Shown here one piece after another: positions 51,692-53,233 of a stretch of DNA of 56,665 nucleotides. Source of the stretch: Chloroflexota bacterium. GTDB lineage: Bacteria > Chloroflexota > UBA6077 > SHYK01. A program made the translations under genes and the position numbers. The notes under the pieces were generated by a model. It did no database searches, was not told where the DNA came from, and was given only the letters and a program-made list of their open reading frames with translations. The stretch is taken from the NCBI GenBank assembly GCA_016844585.1, contig JAERMM010000006.1:1-56665 (forward strand), written 5' to 3'. How positions within the stretch are numbered: the stretch's first letter is position 1; each line of letters opens with the position of its first letter.

Positions 51692-51982
51692 TCACGCACC
51701 TCCGATCTCGACGATCTTAGTCCGGCCGCGTTGGCCCGCCACAACTCTTACCTGCGAGGCCCGCACCCCAAGACGCTCAGCAAGAAGGCGGCACAGCGCA
51801 TCATTGGCCTTTCCATCGATGGGCGCGGTCCCTTCAGCCCGAAGCGTGATGTCCTCCCCTCCCTTGTCCTGGAAGGAGTACATTTCCTTTTCCACGACAT
51901 CAGTCATCTCGCCGGAGGCCGCGACGCTATAATAGGAGCCCCGGGCGAGCGCCTCGAGTATTCGCGTCTCCCCAAGCGTCAG
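51692..51982 (-). CDS. DUF167 (YggU-family) protein carrying a 32-codon HisRS-derived insert; start codon unresolved
   Basis: The C-terminus [38 protein letters not shown] matches the DUF167 core (..dGkAN.al..lLa..lgv..s.v.iv.G..sR.K.v.i). The N-terminal ...[19 protein letters not shown] fits the first strands weakly. Between them lies the left arm of the 99-bp repeat. The only in-frame starts before hisS are CTG or ATA. Confidence 0.5.
   Translation of the reverse strand: [96 protein letters not shown]
51817..51915. repeat. Left arm of perfect 99-bp inverted repeat
   Basis: Exact reverse complement of 52158-52256 (99/99, checked by hand). Confidence 0.97.
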
Positions 51983-52000
51983 ATTCCAACGAGGTGAACG

Positions 52001-53233
52001 GTGTTTCAGGCCCCTCGCGGCACTCAGGACATCCTGCCAGACGACCTGGCCCACTGGACGTTCGTCGAGCGAACCGCCCGCCGCTTCGCTGCGCTGTTCG
52101 GCTATTCCGAGATCCGCACCCCGACCTTCGAAGACACTGGCCTCTTCCACCATGGCGCCGGCGAGATGACTGATGTCGTGGAAAAGGAAATGTACTCCTT
52201 CCAGGACAAGGGAGGGGAGGACATCACGCTTCGGGCTGAAGGGACCGCGCCCATCGCGCAGCCGATCCGTCTCTTCAGCCTGATCAGCGTTTTTCGATAC
52301 GACCGTCCACAGGCAGGACGCCTTCGAGAGCATCACCAGTTCGATTGTGAGGCGTTCGGCGAGGAAGATGCCGCCCTGGACGCCGAGACCATCACCCTGC
52401 TGTGGCGCTTTTATGAGGCGCTGGGCCTCAGCGGCCTATCGATTCAGCTCAACTCTATTGGCGACCTCGAGTGCCGACCGGCCTACATCGCTCGGCTTCG
52501 CGCTCACTACGCTGGCCGCGAGGCCGACTTGTGCGGCGACTGCCGCCGACGTCTTGAAAAGAATCCGCTGCGCCTGCTTGACTGCAAGGTCCCCACATGC
52601 CAGCCAATTGCCGACGCTGCACCGTCTTTCGTCGACAGCCTTTGCCATCCCTGCGCAGAGCACTTTGCGCAGGTTCGAGCGGCGCTCGATGCCGAGAACA
52701 TCCCGGTCATGCTCAACCGCCGCCTGGTGCGAGGATTCGACTACTACACGCGAACCGTGTTTGAAGTGTGGCCGCAACACATTGGCGCCCAGTCGTCCAT
52801 TGGGGGAGGCGGTCGCTACGACGGGCTTGCCGAGCAGATCGGAGGTCGCCACACGCCGGGCGTCGGATTTGGCACAGGCATTGAGCGCTTGATCTTGAAT
52901 CTCAAACGGCAGGGAGTCGAGGTCCCGCCCGCCGACCGGCCAATCGCCTACGTCGCCCACATGAGCGAAGCAGCCCGGAGCGCTGCGCAATTGTTCGCCA
53001 GCATGCTGCGTGCGAGTGGCATTCCGACAGTGCTCGGCGTTGGGAATCGGCCGGTTCGCGCCCGCCTTCGCAACGCCGACTCAATCGGGGTTCGGTGGAC
53101 AGCACTCTTCGGAGACGACGAACTTCGCGACGGATCTGTATCGTTGCGCGACATGTCCACAACGGCGCCCGAGACCGTGCCGGTCGCGGTGGCAGTCGAC
53201 CGGATCGCCGCGACTGCGGGGAAATCGGCATGA
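52001..53233 (+). CDS. hisS: Histidine--tRNA ligase (with an internal ~13-residue gap relative to the family)
   Basis: [74 protein letters not shown], and an anticodon-binding domain. GAGGTG lies 4 nt before GTG 52001. Confidence 0.85.
   Translation: [410 protein letters not shown]
52158..52256. repeat. Right arm of perfect 99-bp inverted repeat (inside hisS, codons 54-85)
   Basis: Exact reverse complement of 51817-51915. Confidence 0.97.

What the first reader, a model, noticed from the sequence alone, without database searches (positions are those of the whole stretch)
51817..52256. Perfect 99-bp inverted repeat bracketing the divergent 5' ends of hisS and a DUF167 gene (candidate invertible module swap)
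Seen directly: 51817-51915 is the exact reverse complement of 52158-52256 (99/99 nt, verified block by block). The 242-bp spacer (51916-52157) holds the hisS start (GAGGTG 51991-51996, GTG 52001) and a TATAAT at 51928-51933. On the other strand it holds the N-terminal part of the DUF167 gene. Both arms are in frame in their genes, so two unrelated divergent genes encode the same 32 residues, [32 protein letters not shown] (HisRS residues 54-85). A 99-nt exact match cannot arise by chance in 57 kb. The geometry is that of an invertible segment. Exchange between the arms would flip the spacer and swap the 5' modules without breaking either frame. One product would be HisRS 1-53, the shared 32 aa and the DUF167 C-terminus. 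The other would be the DUF167 N-terminus, the shared 32 aa and the HisRS catalytic and anticodon-binding remainder. No recombinase gene lies nearby. Four explanations remain open: RecA-type flipping, a trans-acting invertase, a single fixed template-switch (quasipalindrome) conversion, or a fold-back assembly artefact. Separately, a transcript reading through from yggT would contain both arms. It could fold into a 99-bp perfect duplex enclosing the hisS ribosome-binding site.
Basis: partly seen in the sequence, partly recalled or inferred. Interest (0 to 1): 0.85.

Follow-up and report, generated by a model that had tools for sequence, protein, structure and literature searches.

The report
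Inverted-copy scar breaking hisS and DUF167
The perfect 99-bp inverted repeat is real in this contig, but it marks a local scramble that damages both an essential tRNA synthetase gene and its neighbour, so it is most likely a chimeric DNA or assembly artefact in a metagenome-assembled genome and not a genetic switch.

Summary
The repeat is exactly as described: 51817-51915 is the reverse complement of 52158-52256 (99/99), and it is the only long repeat in the contig. The interpretation does not hold. The window is one contig of an uncultured Chloroflexota MAG. The closest relative (about 90% HisRS identity) has an intact 74-aa DUF167 gene diverging from an intact hisS. In the window the left arm replaces the first 33 DUF167 codons, the start codon and about 47 nt upstream. 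No DUF167 N-terminus or in-frame start lies in the spacer. hisS lacks 36 nt, starting exactly at the outer end of the right arm. The lost 12 residues (VRAYLxHGMxxR) include an arginine invariant in 100/100 relatives; none of 164 other hisS loci lacks more than one residue there. Neither spacer orientation restores either gene. No relative has the repeat or an imperfect precursor, and no recombinase lies within about 10 kb. The left arm is a copy of this contig's own hisS. The geometry matches polymerase strand-switch chimeras: opposite strands joined 242 and 440 nt apart, with about 7 nt overlap at one junction. Best reading: an artefact (about 0.68). A real, recent, gene-killing template-switch scar is the main rival (about 0.22). 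An active module-swapping switch is very unlikely (about 0.03). Only the reads can settle it.

The parts
51397..51684 (+). yggT (95 aa), intact. It forms the left, unrearranged flank.
   Evidence: Pfam YGGT 1.9e-21. It is 100% identical to an independent Logan contig, L001 from SRR13434398, which covers window 50858-51759.
51692..51816 (-). Remnant of the DUF167 (YggU-family) gene: the C-terminal 41 codons (DGKAN...EIGGA) plus the stop codon.
   Evidence: Pfam DUF167 4.6e-13, but only profile positions 35-75 of 76. Collinear with L002 143-268.
51817..51915 (-). Left arm: a reverse-complement copy of this contig's own hisS nt 158-256. It occupies the place of DUF167 codons 1-33, the start codon and about 47 nt of upstream DNA (L002 269-414).
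   Evidence: 99/99 match to rc(52158-52256). It is 100% identical to the window's hisS but matches only 84/99 of L002's hisS. Homology to L002 is lost across exactly this stretch and resumes at 51917.
51816..51823 (.). Junction J1 (DUF167 remnant | rc-arm), with an inferred microhomology CGATGGG (the 'PID' codons of DUF167 against the 'PI' codons of hisS).
   Evidence: Window ...CCTTTCCAT|CGATGGGCGCGG against native L002 ...CCTTGCCATCAATGGGGGCCG.
51916..52000 (+). Native hisS upstream region: TATAAT at 51928-51933 and GAGGTG at 51991-51996. It is the first part of the 242-nt 'spacer'. Junction J2 (rc-arm | native) lies at 51915/51916.
   Evidence: Aligns with L002 415-495, including the identical CGCTATAATA and AGCCCCGGGCGAGCGCCTC. 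No DUF167 similarity and no in-frame start on the minus strand.
52001..53233 (+). hisS, 410 aa against 423 aa in close relatives. It carries an in-frame 12-codon deletion.
   Evidence: Pfam tRNA-synt_His and HGTP_anticodon. Alignment A2 shows the gap at [13 protein letters not shown]. PDB alignments to 1QE0 and 1HTT show the same gap.
52158..52256 (+). Right arm: native hisS codons 53-85, the template of the left arm.
   Evidence: Collinear and in frame with L002 hisS 653-751, 84/99 identical.
52256..52257 (+). Junction J4: the site of the 36-nt hisS deletion (L002 has TTCGGGCCTATCTGCAGCACGGCATGCAGGCTCGCC here, encoding VRAYLQHGMQAR). It coincides with the outer end of the right arm.
   Evidence: Only the window, out of 165 hisS loci, lacks more than one residue here, and the lost Arg is invariant in 100/100.

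Best explanation
The repeat is the footprint of a three-junction local scramble of a normal locus, not a device.

The native layout, seen in relatives, is yggT -> / <- DUF167 / hisS ->. In this contig:
- J1/J2: the 5' third of DUF167, with its start codon and upstream DNA, has been overwritten by a reverse-complement copy of 99 nt taken from the contig's own hisS, 242 nt away.
- J4: the 36 nt of hisS that should follow the copied stretch are missing.

So the outer end of the copied stretch (52256) is a breakpoint twice over. It is joined to hisS downstream DNA on one side and, in the copy, to the DUF167 remnant.

I think this most likely arose outside the cell. A polymerase strand-switch or fold-back chimera formed during whole-genome amplification or library end-repair, or possibly an assembler mis-join across a thinly covered stretch, and it was built into the consensus of a metagenome-assembled genome.

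Shown: the structure, its uniqueness to this contig, the damage to both genes, the self-origin of the copy, and the absence of any precursor repeat.

Inferred: that the junctions were made in vitro or in silico and not in the organism.
For: 1. Both genes are broken relative to every relative. DUF167 keeps only profile positions 35-75 of 76 and has no start codon. Ten related loci have a full-length DUF167 in the same divergent position.
2. hisS lacks 12 residues that are present, give or take one residue, in all 164 other loci from many phyla. They include an Arg invariant in 100/100. They are also present in the solved S. aureus and E. coli HisRS structures. hisS is normally an essential single-copy gene (established knowledge), so a population consensus carrying this allele is unexpected.
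3. Neither spacer orientation restores either gene.
4. The arms are 100% identical and the left arm matches the window's own hisS, not a relative's (84/99). The copy is therefore very recent or not biological.
5. No relative has this repeat. The native DUF167 5' region is no more similar to rc(arm) than shuffled sequence is (score 10-13 against 9.7 +/- 1.7).
6. One coordinate, 52256, is shared by two abnormal junctions. That is what a free DNA end (a fragment end or a tip in the assembly graph) would give.
7. The geometry matches described polymerase chimeras. In MDA data, inverted chimeras dominate, the two parts most often lie 250-300 nt apart, and they overlap by 5-8 nt (PMC4595205). Here the distances are 242 and 440 nt, with about 7 nt overlap at J1. 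Fold-back chimeras also arise in sonication and enzymatic libraries during end-repair (PMC10908179).
8. The source is an uncultured MAG contig. The only independent same-organism sequence found stops 57 nt before the arm.
Against: - No read data could be examined, so the artefact origin is inferred and not shown.
- A de Bruijn assembler cannot invent junction k-mers. Reads spanning all three abnormal junctions must have existed and out-competed native reads, which requires low or uneven coverage or an amplified chimeric template. I could not find out whether the sample was amplified or which assembler was used.
- Both abnormal coding junctions are in frame (chance about 1/9). This could hint at selection on a real allele, although J1's frame follows from the codon-phased microhomology.
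- Microhomology is evident only at J1, not at J2 or J4.
- The arm length of 99 equals a common assembler k-mer setting (my own knowledge), but I could not derive a purely in-silico route from k = 99 to this structure, so I give it no weight.
Confidence: 0.68

Rival explanations
1. A real but non-functional mutational scar. In the sampled population, a replication template switch or fold-back repair event copied 99 nt of hisS in inverted orientation over the 5' end of the dispensable DUF167 gene. A linked or hairpin-stimulated deletion then removed 36 nt at the base of the new stem. The locus is a fresh pair of pseudogenes or crippled genes, not a switch.
For: - The left arm is a copy of the genome's own hisS, and a short microhomology sits at J1, as expected for template switching.
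- DUF167 is dispensable at this position, since about 12 related loci lack it altogether.
- Both coding junctions are in frame.
- Junction k-mers must have been present in the reads.
- Deletions with end points at the base of hairpin stems are known in bacteria (established knowledge of palindrome-stimulated deletion). That could explain why J1 and J4 share a breakpoint.
Against: - The hisS deletion removes a segment conserved in 164/164 other loci, including an invariant Arg, in a gene that is normally essential. A consensus allele like this should not persist unless a second hisS exists, which I could not check.
- Zero divergence between the arms, and absence from every relative, mean it would have to be extremely recent yet dominant in the population.
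- No pre-existing quasipalindrome exists.
- Three abnormal junctions within 440 nt are more typical of multi-part polymerase chimeras.
Confidence: 0.22
2. An active invertible segment. Recombination between the 99-bp arms flips the 242-nt spacer and alternates between two pairs of chimeric proteins or promoter states.
For: A perfect 99-bp inverted repeat is a substrate for RecA-dependent inversion if it exists in vivo (established knowledge). The arms are in frame in both genes.
Against: - Both orientations give a HisRS lacking 12 conserved residues and a DUF167 lacking half its domain. The flipped form additionally leaves the hisS catalytic remainder without its own N-terminus, start codon and RBS.
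- The arrangement is not conserved in any of 20 relatives.
- No recombinase lies within about 10 kb; the neighbours are dcw-cluster and translation genes.
- Described intragenic invertons use short repeats (for example 11 nt) and are shown by reads in both orientations (bioRxiv 10.1101/2023.03.11.532203).
Confidence: 0.03
3. A regulatory RNA hairpin. Read-through transcripts from yggT fold the two arms into a 99-bp duplex that sequesters the hisS ribosome-binding site.
For: The predicted fold of 51800-52275 is dominated by the 99-bp stem, -308.5 kcal/mol, z = -18.6.
Against: The stem follows trivially from the DNA repeat. It is absent from all relatives, and no Rfam family matches at the locus. 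It would be built from coding sequence of a damaged gene. It is moot if the DNA arrangement is artefactual.
Confidence: 0.02

Closest known systems
Inverted (strand-switch) chimeras made by DNA polymerases in vitro: phi29 MDA chimeras, and fold-back / PDSM chimeric fragments formed during end-repair of sheared DNA
   Same: They join opposite strands of nearby positions through a few bases of overlap. In MDA data the distance peaks at 250-300 nt and the overlap at 5-8 nt, and multi-part chimeras occur (PMC4595205; PMC10908179). Here the distances are 242 and 440 nt, J1 has about 7 nt of overlap, and one breakpoint behaves like a free DNA end.
   Different: Such chimeras are normally minority reads that assemblers discard. 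Here three junctions made it into a consensus contig. Overlap is evident at only one junction. I could not establish whether the sample was amplified.
Template-switch / quasipalindrome mutations in vivo (replication strand switching that perfects or creates inverted repeats)
   Same: One arm is native. The other is a reverse-complement copy that overwrites the local sequence. The copy comes from within a few hundred nt. There is microhomology at one switch point.
   Different: Classical quasipalindrome events correct a pre-existing imperfect repeat and are short. Here there is no precursor similarity, the tract is 99 nt, and an extra 36-nt deletion in an essential gene accompanies it.
Invertons, including intragenic 'recoding' invertons
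   Same: An inverted-repeat pair flanks a short segment that overlaps coding sequence, and inversion would keep the reading frames open.
   Different: Invertons have short recombinase-recognised repeats, are evidenced by both orientations in reads, and give usable products in each state. Here the repeat is 99 bp of copied coding sequence, is unique to this contig, has no nearby recombinase, and both states encode damaged proteins.

Membership tests
Inverton (recombinase-driven invertible DNA segment, intergenic or intragenic) | A pair of inverted repeats flanks the invertible segment | tested here: met
   99/99 arms with a 242-nt spacer. The arms are much longer than the 11-nt example in 10.1101/2023.03.11.532203.
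Inverton (recombinase-driven invertible DNA segment, intergenic or intragenic) | Both orientations are present among reads of one population | not testable with these tools
   No read data are available. The only independent same-organism contig (L001) ends at 51759, before the arm.
Inverton (recombinase-driven invertible DNA segment, intergenic or intragenic) | A site-specific recombinase (invertase) is available, typically encoded nearby | tested here: not met
   The genes from 41.3 kb to the contig end are mraY, murD, ftsW, murC, murB, ftsQ, ftsA, ftsZ, yggS, yggT, hisS, prfA, prmC, sua5 and an aminotransferase. A trans-acting enzyme elsewhere in the genome cannot be excluded.
Inverton (recombinase-driven invertible DNA segment, intergenic or intragenic) | Each orientation gives a usable product or expression state | tested here: not met
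   Both orientations leave HisRS without 12 conserved residues and DUF167 without profile positions 1-34.
Inverton (recombinase-driven invertible DNA segment, intergenic or intragenic) | The repeat pair is conserved in related genomes | tested here: not met
   None of 20 related loci has an inverted repeat linking the region upstream of hisS with hisS.
Quasipalindrome / template-switch mutation | One arm is native and the other is a reverse-complement copy replacing local sequence | tested here: met
   The right arm is collinear with the relative's hisS. The left arm replaces L002 269-414 and is identical to the window's own hisS.
Quasipalindrome / template-switch mutation | A pre-existing imperfect inverted repeat guides the switch | tested here: not met
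   Native DUF167 5' region against rc(arm): local score 10-13, compared with 9.7 +/- 1.7 for shuffles. No such repeat exists in relatives.
Quasipalindrome / template-switch mutation | Microhomology at the switch points | tested here: inconclusive
   J1 has CGATGGG (5-7 nt), inferred from a relative with about 86% nucleotide identity. J2 and J4 show none. The organism's own native sequence is unknown.
In-vitro inverted polymerase chimera (MDA or end-repair fold-back) | The junction joins opposite strands of positions tens to a few thousand nt apart (mode 250-300 nt) | tested here: met
   J2 joins 52158(-) to 51916(+), 242 nt apart. J1 joins 51816(+) to 52256(-), 440 nt apart. Reference values come from PMC4595205.
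In-vitro inverted polymerase chimera (MDA or end-repair fold-back) | Short overlap (about 5-8 nt) at the junction | tested here: inconclusive
   About 7 nt at J1 by inference; none is evident at J2.
In-vitro inverted polymerase chimera (MDA or end-repair fold-back) | Junctions are carried by a minority of reads or by aberrant reads, and native sequence is present in other reads | not testable with these tools
   No reads are available. Neither the sample's preparation nor the assembler could be traced.
Histidyl-tRNA synthetase (class IIa), as a functional enzyme | A complete catalytic core between the LRPEGTA (TXE) motif and motif 2 (fRYDRPQ) | tested here: not met
   12 residues (VRAYLxHGMxxR) are missing, including an Arg invariant in 100/100. 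The window is unique in this among 165 loci.
DUF167 / YggU family (PF02594) | A full-length domain (profile 1-76) with its own start codon | tested here: not met
   Only profile positions 35-75 match. There is no in-frame start in the spacer. Relatives have 70-74-aa full-length genes.

The most novel reading that the evidence does not exclude
The arrangement is genuine in the cells. A natural 99-nt inverted templated insertion (a large intra-locus template switch) grafted 32 HisRS residues in frame onto the DUF167 C-terminus and created a perfect repeat. RecA can now flip the hisS promoter and 5' module between the two genes, and a second hisS copy elsewhere keeps the cell alive.
Probability: 0.04. 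Interest if true: 0.65.

Novelty: not a real feature. Interest (0 to 1): 0.12.

Why it matters
As biology it most likely does not matter; the value is as a quality flag.

- This public MAG contig (proteins MBM2809480.1 to MBM2809482.1) carries a corrupted hisS and a spurious chimeric ORF. Both can mislead annotation, completeness estimates and searches for invertons or 'shared peptide' modules.
- A perfect inverted repeat in a MAG should be compared with close relatives, and both flanking genes checked for damage, before it is read as a switch.
- If the reads showed it to be real, it would be a rare natural example of a roughly 100-nt template-switch insertion that created a long perfect inverted repeat in a bacterial chromosome. 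That would be of moderate interest for mutation mechanisms.

Tried and rejected
**Looking for independent same-species sequence across the repeat: nothing found**
- Exact look-ups of hisS, prfA and prmC found nothing.
- The yggT look-up gave one 902-nt Logan contig that stops at 51759.
- Protein searches with a reconstructed DUF167 and with the HisRS N-terminal region gave no hit above 82% identity.
- Exact DNA-pattern scans of JGI metagenomes and GTDB genomes with a conserved spacer 31-mer gave 0 hits.
- Protein-guided scans of both collections gave best hits of 78% and 73%.

**Tracing the sample or assembler through the literature: nothing relevant**
- Searches for SRR13434398, HW416 and the MBM accessions gave nothing relevant.

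**Quasipalindrome-precursor hypothesis: rejected**
- There is no excess similarity between the native DUF167 5' region and rc(arm), and no repeat in relatives.

**A purely in-silico k = 99 de Bruijn explanation: not relied on**
- 99 is a common assembler k value (my own knowledge).
- I could not construct a route that creates the junction k-mers without reads that carry them, so it stays a coincidence.

**Functional RNA at the locus: rejected**
- There is no Rfam match at the locus.
- The consensus scan found no promoter-like or terminator-like sites.

**Foreign origin of the left arm (another strain): rejected**
- The arm is identical to the window's own hisS and matches only 84/99 of the nearest relative's.
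Full report
**1. The observation**

The window is a single 56,665-nt contig of an uncultured Chloroflexota MAG. Its HisRS is NCBI protein MBM2809482.1 and its YggT is MBM2809480.1.

- Positions 51817-51915 are the exact reverse complement of 52158-52256 (99/99), with 242 nt between them.
- It is the only long repeat in the contig. The BLAST E-value for the pair within a 900-nt region is 3e-50, so it is not chance.
- The same 32 residues are read from both arms, in frame with HisRS on the plus strand and with a DUF167-type C-terminus on the minus strand.

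**2. What the two genes really look like**

*DUF167.* Pfam matches the minus-strand ORF to DUF167 only at profile positions 35-75 of 76, which is DGKAN to the end. The arm therefore sits where the N-terminal half of the domain should be. The spacer's minus-strand reading (...[26 protein letters not shown]) has no DUF167 similarity and no ATG, GTG or TTG in frame. The ORF stays open only by running antisense through hisS.

*HisRS.* It is 410 aa, whereas close relatives are 423 aa. The alignment places a 12-residue gap at ...[16 protein letters not shown]..., exactly at the outer end of the right arm. The same gap appears against the solved S. aureus (1QE0) and E. coli (1HTT/1KMM) enzymes.

Across 165 hisS loci from many phyla:

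| Residues missing in this segment | Number of loci |
|---|---|
| 0 | 132 |
| 1 | 32 |
| 12 | 1 (the window) |

The lost segment includes the Arg of VRAY, which is invariant in 100/100 ungapped sequences.

**3. The native locus**

The closest relative is a JGI metagenome contig, L002, with 91% HisRS identity and 86% nucleotide identity in the aligned stretch. Its layout is:
- the end of yggT;
- an intact 74-aa DUF167 gene on the opposite strand ([38 protein letters not shown]...);
- about 128 nt of intergenic DNA;
- an intact hisS.

The nucleotide alignment is collinear with the window up to ...CCAT(C) at 51816. It is lost over precisely the left arm and resumes at 51917 (GGCCG..CGCTATAATA). 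It is then interrupted once more, by 36 nt (TTCGGGCCTATCTGCAGCACGGCATGCAGGCTCGCC) that the window lacks at 52256/52257.

Relative to the native layout, the contig therefore differs in two ways:
- About 146 nt (33 DUF167 codons with the ATG, plus 47 nt upstream) are overwritten by a 99-nt inverted copy of hisS.
- 36 nt of hisS are deleted immediately after the copied stretch.

Nine further related loci carry a full-length DUF167 in the same divergent position. About a dozen others have yggT directly followed by hisS, with no DUF167. None of the 20 loci examined has an inverted repeat linking the region upstream of hisS with hisS.

**4. Origin of the copy**

- The left arm is identical to the window's own hisS but matches the relative's hisS at only 84 of 99 positions. 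It was copied from within this sequence, not from another strain.
- The native DUF167 5' region is no more similar to the reverse-complemented arm than shuffled sequence is (score 10-13 against 9.7 +/- 1.7). There was no quasipalindrome to 'perfect'.
- At J1 the two partners share roughly CGATGGG, the Pro-Ile codons of '...APID' in DUF167 and '...APIV' in HisRS. This also explains why the fusion is in frame.
- No overlap is evident at J2 or J4.

**5. Does inversion do anything useful?**

No. As assembled, the locus gives HisRS lacking 12 residues and a start-less half DUF167. With the spacer flipped, it gives HisRS(1-85) fused to the DUF167 C-terminus, and a HisRS remainder that has lost its N-terminus, start codon and RBS and still lacks the 12 residues.

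The neighbourhood is the dcw cluster (mraY, murD, ftsW, murC, murB, ftsQ, ftsA, ftsZ) followed by yggS, yggT, hisS, prfA, prmC and sua5. There is no recombinase. Described intragenic invertons rely on short repeats and on reads in both orientations.

The 99-bp RNA stem is real as a prediction (-308.5 kcal/mol, z = -18.6). It is simply a consequence of the DNA repeat, and no Rfam family matches the locus.

**6. Most likely mechanism**

There are three abnormal junctions within 440 nt. Two of them use the same coordinate, 52256: it is joined to downstream hisS across a deletion and, in the copy, to the DUF167 remnant. That is the behaviour of a free DNA end, not of a programmed site.

The pattern matches polymerase strand-switch chimeras:
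- In MDA data, inverted chimeras dominate. The two parts most often lie 250-300 nt apart, they overlap by 5-8 nt, and multi-part chimeras occur (PMC4595205).
- Fold-back chimeric fragments also arise during end-repair of sonicated or enzymatically fragmented DNA (PMC10908179).
- Here the inverted joins span 242 and 440 nt, and J1 has about 7 nt of overlap.

The resulting allele cripples a normally essential gene (established knowledge), is unique to this contig, and shows zero divergence between the arms. I therefore judge an in-vitro or in-silico origin most likely (0.68).

Caveats:
- Assemblers do not invent junction k-mers, so chimeric templates must have dominated locally, through low or uneven coverage or amplification. 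I could not learn how the sample was prepared or assembled.
- The arm length equals a popular k-mer value, 99 (my own knowledge). I found no purely computational route from that to this structure, so I give it no weight.

**7. Rivals**

- *A genuine, very recent template-switch or fold-back repair scar (0.22).* DUF167 is dispensable here, the junctions are in frame, and deletions at hairpin bases are known. It would, however, require the population consensus to carry a hisS without an invariant segment, or a second hisS that I cannot check.
- *An active module-swapping inverton (0.03).* Disfavoured for the reasons in section 5.
- *A regulatory RNA hairpin (0.02).* Also disfavoured for the reasons in section 5.

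**8. What could not be done**

No independent sequence of the same organism crosses the repeat. The single Logan contig (SRR13434398) is 100% identical to the window over 50858-51759 and ends 57 nt before the arm. All other searches returned only relatives of 82% identity or less, or nothing. Read mapping, or PCR on the source DNA, is the decisive test.

**Verdict**

Most likely this is not a real genomic feature. At best it is a fresh, gene-destroying rearrangement scar. Interest is low.

Noticed in passing
window 6032-6073 and 7665-7760: A 42-nt stretch at 6032-6073 is an 83%-identical copy of the 3' part of the tRNA-Ser(GGA) gene at 7673-7760 (minus strand), 1.6 kb away. It looks like an att-type tRNA 3' fragment left by an integrated or excised element. 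Rfam gives no tRNA call for the fragment.
   Followed up: partly
window 32984-33057 (+): ARAGORN calls a tRNA-Ile with anticodon TAT. Most bacteria decode AUA with a lysidine-modified CAU tRNA, so a UAU tRNA-Ile is uncommon.
   Followed up: no
window 51925-51955; L002 423-453: The non-coding stretch upstream of hisS, CGCTATAATA(2 nt)AGCCCCGGGCGAGCGCCTC, is almost identical in the window and the closest relative, although the aligned region is only about 86% identical overall. It is possibly the hisS promoter plus a conserved leader element. The exact 31-mer was not found in the JGI or GTDB collections.
   Followed up: partly
loci L002, L012, L013, L016-L019, L024, L089, L090 versus L003-L011, L014, L015, L087, L088: The small DUF167 gene between yggT and hisS is a presence/absence polymorphism in this Chloroflexota clade. 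Ten related loci have it, divergent from hisS. About twelve have yggT followed by hisS within tens of nt.
   Followed up: partly
L002 143-367 and 289-1764: The JGI gene call for hisS in the closest relative starts 69 codons too far upstream (491 aa against 423 aa) and overlaps the DUF167 gene on the other strand. DUF167 was therefore never called and is missing from the protein database.
   Followed up: yes
window 55907-56067; L003 8931-9407: Relatives L003 and L004 have rpiB between sua5 and the convergent class-III aminotransferase gene. The window has only about 160 nt of non-coding DNA there.
   Followed up: no
window 5033-5299 (-): A full-length bacterial large SRP RNA, 177.9 bits.
   Followed up: no
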